IMG/VR virus record: IMGVR_UViG_2526164664_000035
Direction: 5' to 3' (one strand)
DNA length: 45,710 bases
From: a virus
Taxonomy: Duplodnaviria > Heunggongvirae > Uroviricota > Caudoviricetes
Positions 29,197 through 45,710 of the stretch are shown here, piece after piece. How positions within the stretch are numbered: position 1 is the first letter of the stretch; every line of letters begins with the position of its first letter. The translations under genes and the position numbers were made by a program. The notes beneath the pieces are model-generated. The model searched no databases, had not been told where the DNA came from, and saw nothing but the letters and a program-made list of their open reading frames with translations.

Positions 29197-29863
29197 TCGC
29201 TTGATTTTAAAGGCTGACTTAACGATATCCCCCTGATAGTCATTTATCAGTTATCTAATTATTAAGTCAGCCATAATCCCCTAAGTATCATTCCTTAATC
29301 AGATTCAGCACCTTGTAATACGACCGGTTAATTTAGAAAGAGACGATAGATAAACGCTTATGATGAAATACTAAGAAATTACTTCAGGCTCTATTAACTG
29401 GAGCTGTAATAGACAATAATTTAAATAACGCAATAGTTATATTTATATCTTAATATAAATTTCCACTGTATTTAACGTCCAGGGAGCCATCTTGAAAGGA
29501 TAAAAATTCACATTATCACCATAAAATCACAACGACACCAAAACACATTTCACAACAACACCCTTGCAATAAACCTGTTTTTAACAAAAAATCAAAGACT
29601 GAAAAGAGTTTTGATTCAGAAAACCACATGAGACATGCTTAATATTTTTCAGTTTATCTAAAGGACGCGTTCATCTTTATTACAAAAATATAAGTACACT
29701 GTACTTATTAAACATCCAAAAATCACACCAGTTAATATTTCTTGTATTACTGTAATTTCTGGAAAAATTTCTTCAAAAAAATATAGCATACATATCTTTA
29801 TATGCTATAAAAGATAAGGCAGATTTATAACATACTTGCCTCAATAGAACTATCTAAGGGTTT

Positions 29864-39067: not shown

Positions 39068-40210
39068 GGTTATCCGGACTGTACGTGAAAAGCATGCCTG
39101 TACTCAGTGCGATGCCATCGTGCAGGCCCCCGCGCCTTCACGGCCCATCGAGCGGGGTATCGCAGGACCGGGGCTGCTGGCCCGCGTGCTGATCTCAAAG
39201 TATGCAGAGCACACCCCGCTGTACCGCCAGTCTGAAATGTACGGCCGCCAGGGCGTGGAGCTGAGTCGTTCACTGCTGTCGGGCTGGGTGGATGCATGCT
39301 GCCGGCTACTGTCACCGCTGGAAGAAGCGCTTCAGGACTATGTGCTGACTGACGGTAAGCTCCATGCTGATGACACGCCTGTCCCGGTGCTGTTGCCAGG
39401 CAATAAGAAAACGAAGACCGGGCGGTTATGGACCTACGTTCGTGACGACCGTAACGCCGGGTCAACGCTGGCGCCGGCGGTGTTGTTCGCTTACAGCCCG
39501 GACAGAAAAGGCATCCATCCGCAGACCCATCTTGCGGGGTTCAGTGGTGTACTGCAGGCGGATGCATACGCCGGGTTCAACGAGCTGTACCGGGATGGCC
39601 GGATAACGGAAGCCGCCTGTTGGGCTCACGCCCGCCGTAAAATCCACGATGTGCACGTTCGCACCCCGTCAGCCCTGACGGAGGAAGCGCTGAAACGGAT
39701 CGGCGAACTGTACGCCATCGAGGCAGAGATAAGGGGAATGACGGCGGAGCAGCGCCTTGCCGAACGTCAGTTGAAAACGAAACCGCTAGCTGAAATCCCT
39801 AGGAAACGCTGGCTGCGTGAAAAGATGAAAACCCTGTCGCGACACTCAGAACTGGCGAAAGCGTTACGCATACGCCCTGAACCAGTGGCCGGCGCTGACG
39901 TACTATGCAGATGATGGCTGGGCTGAGGCGGACAATAACATCGCTGAAAATGCGTTGCGGATGGTCAGTCTGGGCCGCAAAAACTACCTGTTCTTCGGTT
40001 CGGATCATGGAGGAGAGCGGGGAGCGCTGCTGTACAGCCTGATCGGGACGTGCAAACTGAACGGAGTGGAGCCAGAAAGCTACCTCCGCTATGTCCTTGA
40101 CGTCATAGCCGACTGGCCGATAAACCGGGTCGGCGAACTGCTCCCCTGGCGCGTAGCACTGCCGACTGAATAACACATCCCCGTCAATACGGTTCTTGCT
40201 GCACGCTTAC
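39068..40210 (+). mobile_element. 5'-truncated second IS66-family copy (remnant) abutting the first
   Basis: Begins mid-tnpC at a point aligning with ~37934 of copy 1; ends with an IS66-type terminus ...GTCAATACGGTTCTTGCTGCACGCTTAC at 40210. Confidence 0.7.
39120..40173 (+). pseudogene. IS66-family transposase fragment (N-terminally truncated, internal frameshift near 39900)
   Basis: ORFs 39120-39914 and 39955-40173 together align with the C-terminal two-thirds of TnpC ([23 protein letters not shown]...; ...[22 protein letters not shown]). Confidence 0.8.
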
Positions 40211-40613: not shown

Positions 40614-40946
40614 CTAATAAAAGTTCTTTACATCCATAAAATCCATGATGTATTTATCTAATCCTTTGCGATTGAAAAAACCGAAACTTTCAAAGTCTTT
40701 TATTATTTTCCAATCACTAAATACGTATGCCAAACATACCAAATGAAGAAATTTCACAGGCATAGTATAATTTGCTATTTCGTAATATCTTTCTTTGTGG
40801 TTTTCTGGGCAAGATTCATTTGTGAATTTAAATAGAATATAAAAACTACGAACCGCAGAAAAGAGAGCCATAGAGGATTCATTATCAAAAATAGAAAATT
40901 GTTTGCATAATTCTTCTGCATTTTTTGACTTACATGAGTTTATCAT
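40614..40946 (-). CDS. Hypothetical protein, last gene of an AT-rich three-gene cluster
   Basis: 110-aa ORF 18 bp downstream of the 2-TM protein gene, same strand, strongly AT-rich; no motif recognised. Confidence 0.35.
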   Translation of the reverse strand: MINSCKSKNAEELCKQFSIFDNESSMALFSAVRSFYILFKFTNESCPENHKERYYEIANYTMPVKFLHLVCLAYVFSDWKIIKDFESFGFFNRKGLDKYIMDFMDVKNFY

Positions 40947-40963
40947 GTAACTCTCTAAATAGG

Positions 40964-41347
40964 TTACCGCATCTGAGGCTGAGTAGTTTTTTTATTTCTA
41001 CCAGTTATTCTGAGGGCATCAAACTCTCTTCTAGATACTTCAGCGAGGCTATAAAACGATGATTCAAAAGAGCGCAAGTCATCAATTTCTTTTTGTCTTT
41101 CTGAAACCTCATGCATGTGCAAATTTTGTTTAATAATGCTGATGTTAGCCTCTTTTTGTAAGTTTATTGATTTAATTAACATAATCATTGTAAAAAATGT
41201 CAAAATGGGGTTGGTTACGCCGCCAACGAAATCACCAAATGTTCCCCATTCAGACTTATCAATTGGAAAACCATTTAACGGATCGAAATTGAAGAAATAA
41301 ATCAACCATGTAACTGATATAACTAAAAAGGCAACATACTTTATCAT
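40964..41347 (-). CDS. Small two-TM membrane protein (candidate membrane effector)
   Basis: 127 aa; two hydrophobic helices (YVAFLVISVTWLIYFF; VGGVTNPILTFFTMIMLI) and a charged C-terminal tail; its start overlaps the stop of the upstream gene. Confidence 0.5.
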   Translation of the reverse strand: MIKYVAFLVISVTWLIYFFNFDPLNGFPIDKSEWGTFGDFVGGVTNPILTFFTMIMLIKSINLQKEANISIIKQNLHMHEVSERQKEIDDLRSFESSFYSLAEVSRREFDALRITGRNKKTTQPQMR

Positions 41348-41348
41348 A

Positions 41349-42167
41349 TCAATCCGTTATAACTCGGTGAAGACTATATTTTTTAATGACACCAAGAAAG
41401 TTTCTGATTGATGTCACCTCTAGCCGTACACGAGTAAAATCACCATTATCTGTGTTGACGTCTAAGTTTCTAGATAGCCAGCGTTTTTGATCTGCTGGAA
41501 AATCTCTCCAAAGATATGAAGGTTCAAAACTTACAGACTCAGAATCTTCCTCAAGAATGAGCCTTCCCGTCCCCGTTAGCCGATTAAATCTTGTAATAGA
41601 AGCTTCAATAATGATCCTTTCATCATCGGCACGTTCAACAATTAGATTTTCAAGGGTCGTGTGATCATACCGAGCAAGATTTGTCCTTCTCCGTTTCAGC
41701 TCAACAGTATAATTTTGTTCTTCTATGGGCTTATGAAGCTTCAATAGTGGGCCATAAAGCCTCTTCATTAATGAACTATAATCTGACTCAAGTTCTTTAA
41801 CAATTCTAGCAGCCCTTTTATATGTGAAATTATAAGGTGTTAATAATGGTCTTGTAAGATAATAAGACATAACATCTAGAAATGCCCCCTCTCCGATTGC
41901 GCCATAGTTTCTACGTTGTTCCTCACCTGTGATCTTGAGCATGAAACGTTGTCTAAACGACCCTTCATAACTGGTACGAAAAGATGCGGTTATGCCTTCG
42001 ATTGATGGGATTTTAGTAACTACTTCGCGATTTAGAATCGTATTAGTGAGGACTGTAACTATCTCTGACGTGCCTTCAAGTGCTTTTGACCCATAGTAAA
42101 AATCAAGCTCTGTGAATCTTTCTTCTCCATCACTTACTACCATTTCCATGGGAACATGAATTTCCAT
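41349..42167 (-). CDS. Hypothetical cytoplasmic protein, first gene of the AT-rich cluster
   Basis: 272-aa ORF with no recognised motif; translationally coupled to the downstream 2-TM gene; AT-rich context. Confidence 0.5.
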   Translation of the reverse strand: MEIHVPMEMVVSDGEERFTELDFYYGSKALEGTSEIVTVLTNTILNREVVTKIPSIEGITASFRTSYEGSFRQRFMLKITGEEQRRNYGAIGEGAFLDVMSYYLTRPLLTPYNFTYKRAARIVKELESDYSSLMKRLYGPLLKLHKPIEEQNYTVELKRRRTNLARYDHTTLENLIVERADDERIIIEASITRFNRLTGTGRLILEEDSESVSFEPSYLWRDFPADQKRWLSRNLDVNTDNGDFTRVRLEVTSIRNFLGVIKKYSLHRVITD

Positions 42168-42509
42168 TCTCTAATTCCAAATAAAAACCATGGGTTTAAT
42201 ATGTCCTAATTGATTTGGTTTTGGCAACTATTTTTGATTGTTTTTCAAGAATAATTCGAAAGCTATTAATTAATGGCTGGAACTAATAGGTTCCAGTTTT
42301 CAACTAATCCAGTGACCTGCTCCCCGCTGATCAACTCAGACTGTTGTTAGCAACTTACGCTCCTGGTACGGAGCGGGCATTGATTACCCGCTCCGTTCAC
42401 GTTCCGCCTGGAAGTTCTGCAATTTATGTCTATCGGCTATTGAAAACCTTCCGGTCCTTCCCAATATCGAAACTGGCACCTTTGCCAGATAACAAAGAGA
42501 TACGGGAAC

Positions 42510-42830
42510 ATGATGTACGTCTACAGAAGACCTCCAAATCAGCTCCTTTCCATTTCTCGTTTGAAGCAGTATTTGTTGCATGAGGTGGAATCAAATCAAC
42601 ACATCATGAGACAGTGGGAATCTGCCAGAACGGCACTTCGAAACATCCGTAACAAAGGGCATGATCCAGACACCGCCTCCTGGGTTTCACTTAAAAATGA
42701 TCCCCGAGTCTTCACGAATGGCGCAGATGAAAAGCATGGGTTCATTTTTGTTGACGACGACGATCAATCAGTCCTTGTTGTGGCCTCCTGGGTGATAGAT
42801 GAGTACGGTTCCCCCCTCACTACATATTAA
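42510..42830 (+). CDS. Hypothetical small acidic protein
   Basis: ORF upstream of the HEPN-like gene; DDDD acidic patch; the real start may be the internal Met (MRQWES...). No nucleotidyltransferase GS...DxD motif seen. Confidence 0.3.
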   Translation: MMYVYRRPPNQLLSISRLKQYLLHEVESNQHIMRQWESARTALRNIRNKGHDPDTASWVSLKNDPRVFTNGADEKHGFIFVDDDDQSVLVVASWVIDEYGSPLTTY

Positions 42831-42947
42831 TCCCTGTACCTGGACAGAAGAGTTTTCTGTCCACAACTACCAATAGCTTTACATAATGTGTGCATCTAAC
42901 TTCAATAAGTTACTTCATTACCAATAATGTCTAAAAAGGAAACGCGC

Positions 42948-43420
42948 ATGGATATTGATACGCTGGGTGGCCAGGAACTTCGGGATAAGATTTTTGCTGG
43001 GCTCAAAATATACGAGGGTAAACCCTTCATCGAACGGTTCGGTCTGTTTATGGGCAAGGCACAGTTGCTAGAGTTTGGCCTAAAAAAATTCTTGTTTCTT
43101 TTCCGGGATACAACCTTGATGAAGAAAAATTAGAGAGGCTGACATTAGGCCAGACCCGCGTTGAGCTTAAAAAGCTGGGGCTGCGCACGGACTATAATGC
43201 TTACCTGAAGTCATTCAAAGATCAGCGCAATACGATGGCTCACGAGTTCCTTGCTAATTTTGCGGTCACACAGCAGCTTTTAGACGGAGCTGCACTTATT
43301 CGCACATTTGAGCGTGAGTTAGACCATGCCTGTTACGCGGTGGAGCAGTTGATCATCCTTTTCGACTTCATCAACGGTGCCGGTGACGTAACCGCCTGGC
43401 TTGAGCCTACTGCCCCCTGA
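42948..43420 (+). pseudogene. HepT-like HEPN-domain protein gene interrupted by a frameshift at an A7 tract
   Basis: ORFs 42927-43133 and 43235-43420 overlap in two open frames; adding one A to the A7 run at 43082-43088 fuses them into one ~157-aa ORF containing RNTMAHEF (an Rx4HxY-type HEPN motif with F in place of Y). AAGGA RBS before the Met at 42948. Confidence 0.45.
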
Positions 43421-43720
43421 TACTTCGTATGCTTTTATCTCTAGGCTGGACAGAATAGTAATTCTGTCCAGGTATGCAGAATGGCTGTCTATATATCTTC
43501 ATTAGTTCACAGTAGGTTACCGGCGGCTTTGAGCGAACAGCGGAACTTCGCCCTTTAATAAATGATAATAAATTTTCATTATCACTTTAGTTGAAAATGG
43601 TGTCGAAGATGAAGAGAAATGTCATATTAGCCTACGGAGTACTTGTGAAATAAATTCATAGCATTCCCTAACATCTAAACTTAGGGCTCACTGAACGATG
43701 GTGAACCCTATGCCATTGGG

Positions 43721-44575
43721 TTAATAACTATTGATAATTTTGTGAAGTGCAGGGTTAATTGTCGATGAAATATCAAAATCGGAATTTCTAATCGACCCAG
43801 TGCTCCATCCCTCTTTGAAAAAGAGCAGTATAAGGTTAATATATGAATTGTAAGAATCAATAGTTGATTTTACTTCATTCGAAAGATATTTTAGTCGAGG
43901 GTTTACTTTAACAGCAACTGCTAATTCATCATATTTATTCAAAGTATCGTTCAGTTCTGATGGGAAATCGTCACTTGGAAACCCACAAATAAACTGCTCA
44001 TCAATATAATTATCTTTTAAGTATTTACCTAACTTATCTAGTTTACTTTTAATCCCTACTACACTTTCAATGATTTCCTTATCATAATCGCTCAAAAATA
44101 TCTTTAGCCATGCTGACTTATCGGTTTTCAGCAATGAGTTCTTATCCTCCTCGAACATTATGGTTACTGTTTCATAACCTTTTTCCTCGGCTCTATTTAA
44201 ATATTTTCTTAATTCACTTTTCGGAAGATGCTTCCAGTACAAGCTAGGCTCTTTTGAATTGTTATTAAGACAGGTCCGAATAATAACAACTGGATCATTT
44301 ATGCTTTCCCAATAAGCTATATTTTTCATGGGTACAGAAACATTAGGGTTTTCTTCTAGCGTAGTCGCGGTTGTTTTCACCTGCACACCAATAAACATTC
44401 CAGTTGAATGATTTTGGTCATCATAAACTTCAACTTGAGCATCTAACCCCATATCAATATCAAGAATACGGCAAGGCCAGATGAAATTACTTGATATCCA
44501 GTATGCAAAATAAAACTCTCCGGCATTACCATTTGCCACTACGTCTATATATCTCATACCGATATTTGTATTCAT
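43721..44575 (-). CDS. Hypothetical protein with N-terminal PD-(D/E)xK-like (DUF4365-like) nuclease motifs
   Basis: 284 aa, AT-rich; N-terminal ...GEFYFAYWISSNFIWPCRILDIDMGLDAQVEVY...GMFIGVQVKT shows a D-x-D...E/Q-x-K pattern. Family assignment is from memory only. Confidence 0.45.
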   Translation of the reverse strand: MNTNIGMRYIDVVANGNAGEFYFAYWISSNFIWPCRILDIDMGLDAQVEVYDDQNHSTGMFIGVQVKTTATTLEENPNVSVPMKNIAYWESINDPVVIIRTCLNNNSKEPSLYWKHLPKSELRKYLNRAEEKGYETVTIMFEEDKNSLLKTDKSAWLKIFLSDYDKEIIESVVGIKSKLDKLGKYLKDNYIDEQFICGFPSDDFPSELNDTLNKYDELAVAVKVNPRLKYLSNEVKSTIDSYNSYINLILLFFKEGWSTGSIRNSDFDISSTINPALHKIINSY

Positions 44576-44711: not shown

Positions 44712-45710
44712 CTAACTCTGTTTTTCATTTAATTTATCAAATATTTTACCCAAAGTAAGCAAAAGTCGCTCTTGAAATTGATTGGTAATCTCTGGGAGTC
44801 GATTATTTATTTTGGTATCACCACCATAAAATAAATTTCTACTTTTATACGATTCAAAACGTCCTTCTGATGTTTGGTCAGGGAAAAGCAAATATTTTTC
44901 AATACATGCGTTGTTCCGGATAACTCTGTATGCTTTTGGCATATCGTCTAAAAGACCATCATGTATGATATGGTTTCGTACACTTTCTATTTCATTAATA
45001 AATGGGCATTGCTCAAACAAAGATCCTTTATAATTATTTAAGCTCACTTTCTTTTTATCACCATATTGAGAGTTCTTGGATGTGAGTTTAACATAAGAAG
45101 AGAACTGTGTTTTTAAATTTTCAATTTCTATAGCTAGTTTTGTTATGTAGTCGAGCAAACTGTACATGCGGATATAAATAAATCCAAGTAATGCAAAGAG
45201 CTTAGTCACGACTGGAGATGTAACATATCTTATACCGTCCTCCTCTTCAATGTTAGGGAAAAACAAGGGTTCAAAATTCAACGTGTAATAAAACTCCCCT
45301 TGTAGTTGCAACACTTCCTTGCTGCATTCCTGTATGCTACTTACAATTTTACAGCAATCAAAAAGGTAAAGGCCTTTATTTACGTCAGTATGCCCTTTGA
45401 ATTTATCAATAAATAAAACAAATGTTTCTTTTGAAACTACGGATTCAGAGTTCAAACCTGCTGTTGATAAAAACTCAGGGGCCATATAAAGGAACTTGTG
45501 GTAGTTTTCTAATCCATCAAAAATGCTATTAGCTAGAGCATCATGAATATTAACGCATAATGCATCGATCGCATAAAGATGATTCCCTCTGTTCGGGTAC
45601 CATCCACCTTGAGGATCATGTATAAAGTAAATGTCCTCACCTCCAATTGAGTCAGTTGGTATCCCTCTTAAAGTCAAATACATGCTTTCATATGAAGGTA
45701 TCATATCCAT
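44712..45710 (-). CDS. Hypothetical protein, possible HEPN/Abi-like; 5' end at the window edge
   Basis: 332-aa ORF, AT-rich; contains VRNHIIHDG (an Rx4H HEPN-like motif). The first codon sits on the last bases of the window, so the N-terminus may be incomplete. Confidence 0.4.
   Translation of the reverse strand: MDMIPSYESMYLTLRGIPTDSIGGEDIYFIHDPQGGWYPNRGNHLYAIDALCVNIHDALANSIFDGLENYHKFLYMAPEFLSTAGLNSESVVSKETFVLFIDKFKGHTDVNKGLYLFDCCKIVSSIQECSKEVLQLQGEFYYTLNFEPLFFPNIEEEDGIRYVTSPVVTKLFALLGFIYIRMYSLLDYITKLAIEIENLKTQFSSYVKLTSKNSQYGDKKKVSLNNYKGSLFEQCPFINEIESVRNHIIHDGLLDDMPKAYRVIRNNACIEKYLLFPDQTSEGRFESYKSRNLFYGGDTKINNRLPEITNQFQERLLLTLGKIFDKLNEKQS

What the first reader, a model, noticed from the sequence alone, without database searches (positions are those of the whole stretch)
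42948..43420. HepT-like HEPN gene disrupted at a homopolymeric A7 tract
Seen in sequence: two ORFs overlap in different frames, and inserting one A into the A7 run at 43082-43088 yields a single ~157-aa ORF. The restored protein contains RNTMAHEF, which fits the Rx4HxY HEPN RNase motif of HepT-type toxins (F replacing Y). Inference: either a toxin inactivated by a frameshift, a slipped-strand phase-variable switch, or a sequencing error at the homopolymer. The upstream small acidic ORF (42510-42830) lacks a nucleotidyltransferase motif, so any antitoxin partner would be non-canonical.
Basis: partly seen in the sequence, partly recalled or inferred. Interest (0 to 1): 0.55.

Follow-up and report, generated by a model that had tools for sequence, protein, structure and literature searches.

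The report
Frameshifted solo HEPN RNase gene
A small stand-alone gene of the HEPN RNase superfamily, intact in about nine in ten E. coli O26-type strains that carry it, is split here by one missing A in a run of eight; this is most likely a sequencing miscall or an ordinary null allele, not a toxin-antitoxin gene or a genetic switch.

Summary
There is an A7 run at 43082-43088, and adding one A gives a 157-aa ORF (42948-43420) identical to RefSeq WP_000350517.1.

**Not HepT-type.** There is no DUF86 hit and no Tyr after the His. No nucleotidyltransferase gene lies next to it here, and none was found near its relatives in about 30 other loci. The upstream 106-aa ORF is not a conserved partner.

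**Context.** The gene sits alone in prophages, plasmids and genomic islands.

**The frameshift.**
- 81 of 82 complete E. coli genomes with the locus lack the A7 allele, and the five that were read have A8.
- In draft assemblies A8 is seen on at least 1,100 contigs, A7 on about 100, and A6 and A9 on one each.
- The window is identical to draft GCA_000250055.2. Against a closed reference that draft has 8 single-base indels and 3 substitutions, and three of four 8-nt homopolymers are one base short.
- A miscall is therefore the most likely cause here. A7 is nevertheless a real, inherited allele in other strains.

Programmed phase variation is unsupported.

The parts
42948..43420 (+). Disrupted CDS of a solo HEPN-superfamily protein. 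With A8 it encodes 157 aa, identical to WP_000350517.1.
   Evidence: Homologues. Model pLDDT 89.4.
42936..42941 (+). Shine-Dalgarno-like AAGGAA, 6 nt before ATG 42948.
   Evidence: Read from the sequence. Homologues start at this Met.
42948..43133 (+). N-terminal fragment ORF in the A7 allele (61 aa). It keeps helices 1-2 and E42-x3-K46, then has 14 out-of-frame residues.
   Evidence: Annotated as WP_000350516.1 in FWSEC0001. This exact product is seen on 92 contigs.
43071..43085 (+). Codons E42-F-G-L-K46, the HEPN 'E-x3-[KR]' motif. K46 is the first Lys codon of the A run.
   Evidence: E42 and K46 are invariant or at least 90% conserved. Motif definition from PMC3710099.
43082..43088 (+). A7 homopolymer (CT-A AAA AAA-TTC). 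It is A8 in the five non-A7 complete genomes read and in the great majority of assemblies. The site of the 1-nt contraction.
43226..43243 (+). Codons R94-N95-T-M-A-H99, the HEPN Rx4H catalytic motif. In the A7 allele R94 and N95 lie in the untranslated gap.
43235..43420 (+). C-terminal fragment ORF in the A7 allele (61 aa). It starts at M97, the only start codon in that frame.
   Evidence: Annotated as WP_000929779.1 in FWSEC0001. Seen on 46 contigs.
43446..43471 (.). Perfect 11-bp-stem hairpin, CTGGACAGAAT-AGTA-ATTCTGTCCAG, 25 nt after the stop codon with no T tract after it. The stem sequence is conserved downstream of the gene in Klebsiella, Citrobacter and Yersinia, and the pattern is also present just downstream of the gene on two IMG/VR contigs.
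   Evidence: (-19 kcal/mol, z -4.7).
42840..42864 (.). Second copy of the same hairpin stem (CTGGACAGAA-GAGTT-TTCTGTCCAC), 10 nt after the stop of the upstream 106-aa ORF. With the 3' hairpin it forms 13-nt perfect inverted repeats (42837-42849 and 43462-43474) that bracket the HEPN gene.
   Evidence: A degenerate copy follows the ORF's homologue on an Enterobacter plasmid.
42510..42830 (+). Upstream 106-aa ORF (WP_000990407.1, annotated in only some genomes). It is a real conserved ORF but not a partner of the HEPN gene.
   Evidence: 72-member cluster; absent from other HEPN loci; occurs alone.

Best explanation
The locus is a single-gene cassette. It encodes a stand-alone HEPN-superfamily protein, a predicted metal-independent RNase, from an unnamed family whose nearest Pfam family is RiboL-PSP-HEPN, below threshold. 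In nature the E. coli allele is intact, with an A8 run that encodes L45-K46-K47-I48 and overlaps the catalytic E-x3-K motif. In this window the run is A7. That splits the gene so that neither fragment has both halves of the active site: the C-terminal ORF can only start at M97, after R94 and N95. For this particular sequence, which is identical to draft assembly GCA_000250055.2, the missing A is most likely a homopolymer undercall of an error-prone assembly.

Inferred mechanism of the intact protein: it dimerises so that two Rx4H motifs form one RNase site. Because it has no conserved inhibitor gene, it is probably held inactive until a phage cue, and then cleaves tRNA or mRNA to abort infection, in the manner of the solo prophage HEPN protein HepS.

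Shown here: gene identity, motif conservation, predicted fold, lack of a conserved partner gene, mobile-element contexts, allele frequencies and the assembly's error profile. Inferred: RNase activity, dimerisation, the defence role and the trigger.

The confidence of 0.5 applies to the full statement, including the artefact reading. The gene identity (a solo HEPN-superfamily gene broken by an A8-to-A7 contraction, not HepT/MNT) taken alone is about 0.85.
For: **Gene identity**
- The repaired ORF equals WP_000350517.1.
- The family has 210 clusters at 50% identity with E <= 0.001, mostly about 150 aa.
- K37, Q39, E42, L45, K46, D82, R94, N95 and H99 are invariant in 28 relatives. E42, K46, R94 and H99 are at least 90% conserved in 70 diverse relatives.
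- These match the HEPN hallmarks in PMC3710099: Rx4-6H, a polar residue after the R, and an upstream E-x3-[KR].
- The AlphaFold2 model has pLDDT 89.4 and is all-helical.
- The only Pfam families that recur among relatives are HEPN families: RiboL-PSP 9/70, Apea 3, HepT-like 3, MAE_28990 2. Those RiboL-PSP matches that were inspected cover the motif region.
- UniRef names a member 'RiboL-PSP-HEPN domain-containing'.

**Solo and mobile**
- No neighbour is conserved across 21 loci.
- The gene lies beside a prophage integrase in Klebsiella, between the Q antiterminator and the lysis genes of a Yersinia prophage, in another prophage, in a SIR2/HEPN island and on plasmids.

**The break**
- 81 of 82 complete genomes with the locus lack the A7 allele. 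All 58 full-length matches listed other than FWSEC0001 are one base longer than the window, and the five read directly have A8.
- A8 products are on at least 1,000 plus 108 contigs, A7 products on 92 plus 12.

**Artefact**
- The window is 100% identical to AIGS01000041.1.
- Against closed O26:H11 str. 11368 it shows 8 single-base indels and 3 substitutions.
- Three of four reference 8-nt homopolymers are one base short (29775, 40987, 43082).
- T7 at 40987 and the four insertions at 39788-39866 appear in none of the other assemblies that cover those sites, 14 and 3 of them respectively.
Against: **Against the artefact reading**
- The same A7 allele is genuine elsewhere. It is in the Illumina-polished closed genome FWSEC0001.
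- It is also in several draft assemblies whose only difference from the reference over 5.4 kb is the A7.
- The window's strain could therefore simply belong to that lineage. No reads were available to decide.

**Against the functional inference**
- No HEPN model reaches its curated threshold. The best relative scores 19.8 bits against 28.4 for PF18735.
- Foldseek against the PDB and against BFVD gives nothing significant.
- No experiment on any family member was found.
Confidence: 0.5

Rival explanations
1. The gene is the same, but the A7 is real in this strain. It is an inherited loss-of-function allele: a pseudogene produced by replication slippage at a mutational hot spot and carried by a minority O26 sublineage.
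For: A7 products occur on about 100 contigs from independent projects, including the Illumina-polished closed genome FWSEC0001. A7 carriers show two haplotypes, 43660A and 43660T. The T variant is seen only with A7 and in two independent assemblies, so A7 is transmitted vertically. The gene is also broken in other ways: an IS600 insertion at about 43065 in two closed genomes, A6 and A9 alleles, and truncated or split copies in Klebsiella, Enterobacter and Bradyrhizobium. That pattern fits relaxed or negative selection.
Against: Only 1 of the 80 complete genomes that carry the whole locus has A7, and at most about 9% of contigs do. The window's assembly shortens other 8-nt homopolymers and carries private indels. 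On those figures a miscall would be several times more likely than membership of the A7 lineage. Because the error estimate rests on only three other 8-nt runs, a wider margin is kept for the real allele.
Confidence: 0.38
2. The poly(A) tract is a slipped-strand phase-variation switch, a contingency locus that turns a costly RNase on and off. The A7 'off' state might be leaky, because A AAA AAA sits in the 0 frame as a classic -1 slippery heptamer and a -1 slip restores exactly the A8 protein.
For: Tract lengths of 6, 7, 8 and 9 all exist in public assemblies. The tract lies inside the coding sequence, on a catalytic motif. The heptamer phase follows from the sequence. That A AAA AAA is a -1 slippery heptamer is established knowledge of -1 frameshifting, not a result obtained here.
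Against: The length distribution is extremely skewed, with A8 on at least 1,100 contigs and A6 and A9 on one each. The tract is merely Leu-Lys-Lys-Ile codons and is not maintained in homologues: Klebsiella and Yersinia have an in-frame A7, and others have A4-A6 or interrupted runs. A7 is stably inherited along with a linked SNP. From general knowledge, an 8-nt A run in mismatch-repair-proficient E. coli is a hot spot rather than a high-frequency switch. No stimulatory downstream hairpin was found next to the heptamer.
Confidence: 0.05
3. It is a HepT-type (DUF86) toxin of a type VII HEPN-MNT toxin-antitoxin pair, with the upstream 106-aa ORF acting as a non-canonical antitoxin.
Against: The protein has no PF01934 hit. 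The Tyr that MntA AMPylates in HepT, as recalled from the literature, is F or M here. No MNT gene is called beside it in the window or in the loci with gene calls, and none recurs in the clustered loci. The 106-aa ORF has no family hit, is absent from all non-E. coli HEPN loci, and occurs without the HEPN gene on NZ_CP132233.1.
Confidence: 0.03
4. It is not an RNase at all. It is a generic helical-bundle protein whose R-x4-H is structural or binds something other than RNA.
Against: Three independent HEPN sequence hallmarks are conserved together across distant relatives. The weak profile hits that recur are nearly all HEPN families in two different libraries.
Confidence: 0.08

Closest known systems
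HepS (STM14_3211) of Salmonella prophage Gifsy-1, the 'HEPN Solo' abortive-infection protein (PMC13043305; PDB 9oij)
   Same: Both are small stand-alone HEPN proteins with an Rx4H motif at about residue 100 (R100-H105 in HepS, R94-H99 here). Both are carried on prophages with no conserved partner or inhibitor gene. 9oij_B is the only HEPN entry in the top ten of the Foldseek PDB list (rank 8).
   Different: No detectable sequence relationship: a 70-sequence profile finds no HepS chain in the PDB at E <= 10. The structural match is weak (probability 0.35, TM 0.45, E 1.8). This protein is 157 aa against 186. Activity, trigger and oligomeric state are all unknown here.
RiboL-PSP-HEPN (Pfam PF18735; the 'Ribo L-PSP-HEPN' family of Anantharaman et al. 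2013, PMC3710099), which that paper calls distantly related to AbiD and AbiF
   Same: It is the best and most frequent Pfam match among relatives (9 of 70). The two matches inspected cover the Rx4H region. UniRef uses this name for members.
   Different: All scores are below the curated cut-off: at most 19.8 bits against 28.4, and none at all for the E. coli protein. There is no L-PSP fusion and no ParB operon.
HepT/MntA (DUF86-MNT) type VII toxin-antitoxin systems
   Different: No Tyr after the His, no adjacent nucleotidyltransferase gene, and no DUF86 profile hit.
Homopolymer frameshift pseudogenes and assembly homopolymer errors in enterobacterial genomes
   Same: A single-base contraction of an 8-nt A run. 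Intact alleles dominate the population. The same draft assembly shortens other 8-nt runs.
   Different: Nothing that was tested.

Membership tests
HEPN superfamily (Anantharaman et al. 2013, PMC3710099) | Conserved Rx4-6H motif | tested here: met
   R94-x4-H99. Invariant in 28 relatives and at least 90% conserved in 70 diverse relatives.
HEPN superfamily (Anantharaman et al. 2013, PMC3710099) | Polar residue (N, D or H) immediately after the R | tested here: met
   N95 is invariant in the 28-sequence set. The consensus of the 70-sequence set reads RNxxAHE.
HEPN superfamily (Anantharaman et al. 2013, PMC3710099) | Upstream conserved acidic residue within an E-x3-[KR] motif | tested here: met
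   E42-F-G-L-K46. Both residues are invariant and at least 90% conserved in 70 relatives. Motif definition read.
HEPN superfamily (Anantharaman et al. 2013, PMC3710099) | Alpha-helical bundle fold similar to solved HEPN domains | tested here: inconclusive
HEPN superfamily (Anantharaman et al. 2013, PMC3710099) | Metal-independent RNase activity that depends on the R and H | not testable with these tools
   Needs biochemistry.
HepT/DUF86 toxin of HEPN-MNT toxin-antitoxin systems | Match to the HepT-like profile (PF01934) above threshold | tested here: not met
   No hit for this protein at E <= 1. Three of 70 relatives hit, best E 0.013.
HepT/DUF86 toxin of HEPN-MNT toxin-antitoxin systems | Rx4HxY motif, with the Tyr that the MNT antitoxin AMPylates (role of the Tyr recalled from the literature) | tested here: not met
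   The residue two after the His is F or M in all 28 aligned relatives.
HepT/DUF86 toxin of HEPN-MNT toxin-antitoxin systems | Adjacent nucleotidyltransferase (MNT) gene | tested here: not met
   No nucleotidyltransferase family appears among the neighbours in the window or in the loci with gene calls. No neighbour is shared across 21 loci.
RiboL-PSP-HEPN (PF18735) | Score at or above the Pfam gathering threshold (28.4 bits) | tested here: not met
   No hit for this protein. The best relatives score 19.8 and 18.1 bits.
RiboL-PSP-HEPN (PF18735) | Fusion to the endoribonuclease L-PSP domain, or an operon with ParB (PMC3710099, Table 1) | tested here: not met
   The proteins are stand-alone. No ParB or L-PSP gene is a neighbour at a distance that suggests an operon.
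HepS family (PMC13043305) | Sequence homology to STM14_3211 / PDB 9oij | tested here: not met
   A profile of 70 relatives searched against all PDB chains at E <= 10 returns only 2drv and 9j1l. The HepS sequence itself could not be obtained for a direct comparison: it is absent from the LT2 Gifsy-1 record and no supplement is held.
HepS family (PMC13043305) | Solo HEPN gene on a prophage with no partner | tested here: met
Phase-variable contingency locus | Tract-length polymorphism among isolates in both directions at appreciable frequency | tested here: not met
   A8 on at least 1,100 contigs, A7 on about 100, A6 on 1 and A9 on 1. One of the 80 complete genomes with the whole locus is A7.
Phase-variable contingency locus | Repeat tract maintained by selection in orthologues | tested here: not met
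   Klebsiella and Yersinia have CTG AAA AAA ATC, an in-frame A7. Others have A4-A6 or interrupted runs.
Phase-variable contingency locus | Within-culture length heterogeneity | not testable with these tools
   No read data are available.

The most novel reading that the evidence does not exclude
WP_000350517.1 founds a previously unrecognised solo-HEPN abortive-infection family. It would follow the HepS logic (no antitoxin, activated by a trigger) but is unrelated to HepS in sequence. It travels as a one-gene cassette with its own conserved 3' palindrome. In E. coli its A8 run, which sits on the catalytic E-x3-K motif, would act as a recurrent on/off or dimmer site, with the A7 allele partly rescued by -1 slippage on A AAA AAA.
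Probability: 0.07. Interest if true: 0.6.

Novelty: new member of a known kind. Interest (0 to 1): 0.27.

Why it matters
The frameshift itself matters little. It is either an assembly error or one of several ordinary ways this accessory gene gets knocked out, and annotators should treat the two 61-aa 'hypothetical proteins' as one broken gene.

The gene family is more useful. It is a compact stand-alone HEPN protein with no Pfam, NCBIfam or PADLOC model. It is found in prophage moron positions, on plasmids and in defence-type islands across Proteobacteria. After HepS showed that solo HEPN proteins can both sense phage and abort infection, this is a cheap candidate to test for anti-phage activity in Shiga-toxin-producing E. 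coli O26.

Tried and rejected
- **Curated profile libraries.** Pfam, NCBIfam, PADLOC and PHROGs scans of the repaired protein gave no hit at or near threshold. The best was PD-T4-2_B at E 0.05.
- **Foldseek.** Nothing significant against the PDB or BFVD. The afdb50 library was not available.
- **Profile search of PDB sequences.** No HEPN hit.
- **HepS sequence.** I tried to obtain it for a direct comparison. The LT2 Gifsy-1 record has no candidate with an Rx4H near residue 100, and the paper's supplements are not held.
- **Conserved partner gene.** Neighbour clustering over 21 loci found only antisense-ORF artefacts and a few pairwise matches. tblastn of the window's four neighbouring proteins against 29 other loci found nothing.
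- **Repaired sequence as input.** P0001, which differs by one residue (D to E), was used instead.
- **Look-ups of the 106-aa ORF's homologues.** A plasmid search replaced them.
- **The 3' hairpin as a widespread viral element.** 107 IMG/VR matches is roughly what I estimate chance would give for a 16-base pattern (my own rough calculation, not a tool result). Only two of them sit next to the gene. Rfam finds nothing in 42200-43750.
- **INPHARED phage genomes.** No homologue.
- **Literature.** No paper mentions ECO26_3411 or WP_000350517. The sequencing platform of GCA_000250055.2 could not be established from the library.
Full report
**1. The observation**

Window positions 43082-43088 are seven A's, in the context GGC CTA AAA AAA TTC. 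Frame 0 runs from ATG 42948 to a stop at 43131-43133. An alternative ATG lies at 42927. The frame that ends at 43420 is open from 43022, but its only start codon is ATG 43235. Adding one A fuses the two frames into a 157-aa ORF.

This is not a chance reading. The fused protein is identical to the annotated CDS WP_000350517.1 of E. coli O26:H11 str. 11368. The 1,401-bp query differs from that genome only by the one-base gap in the A run. ATG 42948 is the likely start, because AAGGAA lies 6 nt upstream and homologues align from that Met.

**2. What the protein is**

A search of 5.8 billion proteins found 55 relatives. Full-length 157-aa proteins at 77-89% identity occur in Klebsiella, Leclercia, Pantoea, Cronobacter, Yersinia, Citrobacter and Raoultella. 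Relatives at 41-58% identity occur further out. An exhaustive profile search found 210 clusters at 50% identity with E <= 0.001, most of them stand-alone proteins of about 150 aa.

In 28 relatives, K37, Q39, E42, L45, K46, D82, R94, N95 and H99 are invariant. In 70 diverse relatives at 23-44% identity, E42, K46, R94 and H99 remain at least 90% conserved.

The HEPN superfamily paper (PMC3710099) defines the domain by three features:
- an Rx4-6H motif;
- a polar residue (N, D or H) right after the R;
- an upstream acidic residue in an E-x3-[KR] motif.

All three are present and conserved here, as E42-FGL-K46 and R94-N95-TMA-H99.

- TTHA0636 (1wwp);
- HEPN toxins 7ae2 and 8xdj;
- HI0074 (1jog);
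- YutE (1ylm);
- HepT SO_3166 (5yep);
- AF0298 (2hsb);
- Csm6 (6tug);
- AbiA (8oz7);
- Csx1-Crn2 (8y7f).

These sit among generic helical bundles that score as high or higher. Foldseek is not significant against the PDB or BFVD.

No curated profile reaches threshold for this protein. When all 70 relatives are scanned, the only Pfam families that recur are HEPN families: RiboL-PSP 9, Apea 3, HepT-like 3, MAE_28990 2 and Csm6 1. The two RiboL-PSP matches I inspected cover the motif region and score 18-20 bits against a cut-off of 28.4. PADLOC shows the same pattern of weak Cas13-ApeA, Csx1, Cas13b and CARF-HEPN hits. UniRef labels members 'RiboL-PSP-HEPN domain-containing protein'.

I conclude that this is a HEPN-superfamily protein of an unnamed family, with RiboL-PSP-HEPN as its nearest named family.

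**3. It is not HepT-type and has no partner**

- The residue two after the His is F or M in every aligned relative, never Y.
- No nucleotidyltransferase family was found among the window's neighbouring proteins.
- Neighbour clustering over 21 loci from three proteobacterial classes finds no shared neighbour.
- None of the window's four neighbouring proteins occurs in 29 other loci that carry the gene.
- In E. coli the upstream 106-aa ORF (42510-42830) is found in exactly the 82 genomes that carry the HEPN locus.
- A 66%-identical homologue of that ORF sits alone on Enterobacter plasmid NZ_CP132233.1, next to a LysR gene. That plasmid is not among the HEPN-bearing plasmids.

The contexts are mobile:
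- next to a prophage integrase at the edge of the element in Klebsiella;
- on the opposite strand between the Q antiterminator and the lysis cassette of a Yersinia lambdoid prophage;
- inside another prophage, after an XRE-type gene;
- in an island with SIR2 and a Swt1-like HEPN protein;
- among BrnT/BrnA modules on a 12.8-kb Acinetobacter plasmid;
- on Leclercia and Pantoea plasmids;
- on two IMG/VR contigs.

It is absent from the 50,697 deposited phage genomes searched. In the window it lies in an island beside a P22-like prophage, followed in O26 genomes by a YeeP-like GTPase, Ag43 and CbeA-type genes.

**4. The frameshift**

*Complete genomes.* Among 5,426 complete E. coli genomes, 82 carry the locus.
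- Only FWSEC0001 matches the A7 allele. The other 81 differ from the window across the tract.
- Every other full-length match listed (58 of them) is one base longer than the window.
- All five that I read directly have A8.
- Two strains carry an IS600 inside the gene at about 43065. One of them was read and has A8 downstream of the insertion.

*Draft assemblies.* Exact-sequence look-ups in about 15 billion proteins give:

| Allele | Product looked up | Contigs |
|---|---|---|
| A8 | 164-aa product | 108 |
| A7 | N-terminal fragment, 61 aa | 92 |
| A7 | N-terminal fragment, 68 aa | 12 |
| A7 | C-terminal fragment | 46 |
| A9 | N-terminal product | 1 |
| A6 | N-terminal product | 1 |

A7 is therefore a minority allele, at most about 9% of contigs.

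*A7 is real in some strains.* FWSEC0001 is a MinION assembly polished with five rounds of Illumina reads (PMC6787312). Several draft assemblies differ from the reference only by A7 over 5.4 kb. FWSEC0001 and GCA_028050235.1 share A7 plus a private SNP, 43660 A to T, which was not seen on an A8 background among the four A8 loci compared. So A7 is inherited vertically in at least one lineage.

*The window's own assembly looks error-prone.* The window is 100% identical over 12.8 kb to AIGS01000041.1 of draft GCA_000250055.2. Against the closed O26:H11 reference that assembly shows the following over about 40 kb:
- 8 single-base indels against 3 substitutions;
- three of the four reference 8-nt homopolymers one base short (A at 29775, T at 40987, A at 43082);
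- T7 at 40987, which splits the neighbouring 244-aa gene and appears in none of the 14 other assemblies compared;
- four single-base insertions at 39788-39866, which appear in none of the three other assemblies that cover that stretch.

An indel-dominated difference profile with private homopolymer contractions is the signature of assembly error. I take a prior of at most 9% for a real A7 and an undercall rate of roughly one to two in three at other 8-nt runs. On those figures a miscall comes out several times more likely than a real A7. The rate rests on only three other runs and A7 is demonstrably real elsewhere, so I put a miscall at about 0.5 and a real inherited null allele at about 0.4. 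Reads would settle it.

*Consequence of A7.* The N-terminal product keeps E42-x3-K46 but ends 14 residues later. The C-terminal ORF can only start at M97, so it lacks R94 and N95. Neither fragment has a complete active site.

*Phase variation.* The run is simply CTA-AAA-AAA-ATT (Leu-Lys-Lys-Ile). Klebsiella and Yersinia have CTG-AAA-AAA-ATC, an in-frame A7, and more distant homologues have runs of A4-A6. The tract is therefore not maintained. Lengths other than 7 and 8 are singletons, and A7 is stably inherited. I find no support for a programmed switch.

One point from the sequence alone is worth recording. In the A7 allele the seven A's lie in the 0 frame as A AAA AAA, a classic -1 slippery heptamer by established knowledge. 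A -1 slip there would restore exactly the A8 protein. No stimulatory structure was found next to it, so this remains a low-probability idea.

**5. Likely mechanism (inferred)**

By analogy with characterised HEPN RNases (PMC3710099), the intact protein should dimerise so that two Rx4H motifs form a composite, metal-independent RNase site. It has no conserved inhibitor gene, yet it is kept intact on more than 1,000 assemblies, so it is probably inactive by default.

The closest working model is HepS of Gifsy-1 (PMC13043305). HepS is a solo prophage HEPN protein that rests as an inactive tetramer. Siphophage tail-tip protein activates it, and it then cleaves tRNA anticodon loops to abort infection.

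The resemblance is one of logic, not of family. The 70-sequence profile does not find HepS in the PDB at E <= 10. The Foldseek match to 9oij_B is weak, with probability 0.35 and TM 0.45.

Independent disruptions recur: A7, A6, A9, IS600, and truncated or split copies in Klebsiella, Enterobacter and Bradyrhizobium. That fits an accessory defence or toxic gene under fluctuating selection.

**6. Extra anatomy**

A perfect hairpin, CTGGACAGAAT-AGTA-ATTCTGTCCAG (43446-43471), lies 25 nt after the stop codon. It has no T tract, folds at -19 kcal/mol and has z = -4.7. Its stem sequence, but not its loop or flanks, is conserved downstream of the gene in Klebsiella, Citrobacter and Yersinia. The same pattern also lies just downstream of the gene on two IMG/VR contigs.

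In E. coli a second copy of the stem follows the 106-aa ORF at 42840-42864. The HEPN gene is thus bracketed by 13-nt perfect inverted repeats. A degenerate copy follows that ORF's homologue on the Enterobacter plasmid.

Rfam has no match. The motif is not a general viral element. Its role is unknown: it could be a transcript 3' end or stabiliser, a protein-binding palindrome or a cassette boundary.

**7. Verdict**

The gene is a new, uncharacterised member of the known class of solo HEPN proteins on mobile elements and a reasonable candidate anti-phage gene. Interest 0.27.

Noticed in passing
window 40987-40993 (within 40614-41347, minus strand): A T7 run that is T8 in all 14 other assemblies compared. 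It frameshifts the 244-aa hypothetical gene WP_000599124.1, which is split into 39-aa and 127-aa calls in this assembly. This contraction is private to the window's assembly and points to homopolymer undercalling.
   Followed up: yes
window 39788, 39801, 39807, 39866: Four single-base insertions within 80 bp relative to three other genomes, in non-homopolymer context inside the ISEc22 (IS66-family) transposase remnant. They are probably assembly noise from collapsed IS copies.
   Followed up: partly
window 28979 and 29775: Two more homopolymer contractions relative to O26:H11 str. 11368 (A5 against A6, and A7 against A8), in the island left of the IS cluster.
   Followed up: partly
window 44712-45710 (minus strand): A 332-aa hypothetical protein (WP_000367246.1) with an SVRNHIIHDG motif (Rx4H) and a weak HEPN_Cthe2314 hit (E 0.0047). 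It is a second candidate HEPN protein two genes away. Other proteins with an Rx4H motif also lie near the 157-aa gene's relatives: a 255-aa protein in Yersinia (also next to the gene in Enterobacter chinensis), a 177-aa protein at L015:5501-6034, and a 399-aa Swt1-like HEPN protein at L014:2635-3834.
   Followed up: partly
window 43721-44575 (minus strand): A DUF4365 protein (Pfam E 3e-13), convergent with the HEPN gene. Its N-terminus matches the PADLOC model Aga_REase-PNTD1-PNTD2 (E 5e-12), so it may be a restriction-endonuclease-fold defence component.
   Followed up: no
window 41349-42167 and 40614-41347 (minus strand): A two-gene operon of hypothetical proteins (272/266 aa and 244 aa), divergent from the HEPN side. 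The first has only weak DUF7946/DUF7947 hits (E 0.03-0.05). No PADLOC or NCBIfam match.
   Followed up: no
L005:4767-6027 (E. coli 88_1577), equivalent to window ~43065: An IS600 insertion inside the HEPN gene in two closed bovine-isolate genomes (88_1577 and 95_0274). The remaining C-terminal 118-aa product (WP_244576001.1) is seen on 13 contigs. This is an independent knock-out of the same gene.
   Followed up: partly
window 42837-42864 and 43446-43474; L009:6506-6533; L029:6512-6537; L016:5507-5536; L156:3320-3347: A conserved palindromic hairpin, CTGGACAG...CTGTCCAG, follows the HEPN gene in four genera. A sister copy follows the unrelated 106-aa ORF in E. coli, and a degenerate one follows its homologue in Enterobacter. 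There is no T tract and no Rfam match, and its function is unknown.
   Followed up: partly
L030:6001-6511 (Enterobacter sp. EA-1) and L045:5941-6380 (Bradyrhizobium sp. DASA03120): Relatives of the gene are themselves truncated (an 86-aa ORF) or split (71 aa plus 76 aa) in other genera. Short Klebsiella variants (P0045, P0046) are truncated near the RN motif. Decay of this family is recurrent.
   Followed up: partly
protein P0207: The A7 N-terminal fragment is reported with a longest contig of 5,741,055 bp. That is the length of strain 95_0274, whose RefSeq record has the IS600 insertion and is not A7. The discrepancy was not resolved.
   Followed up: no
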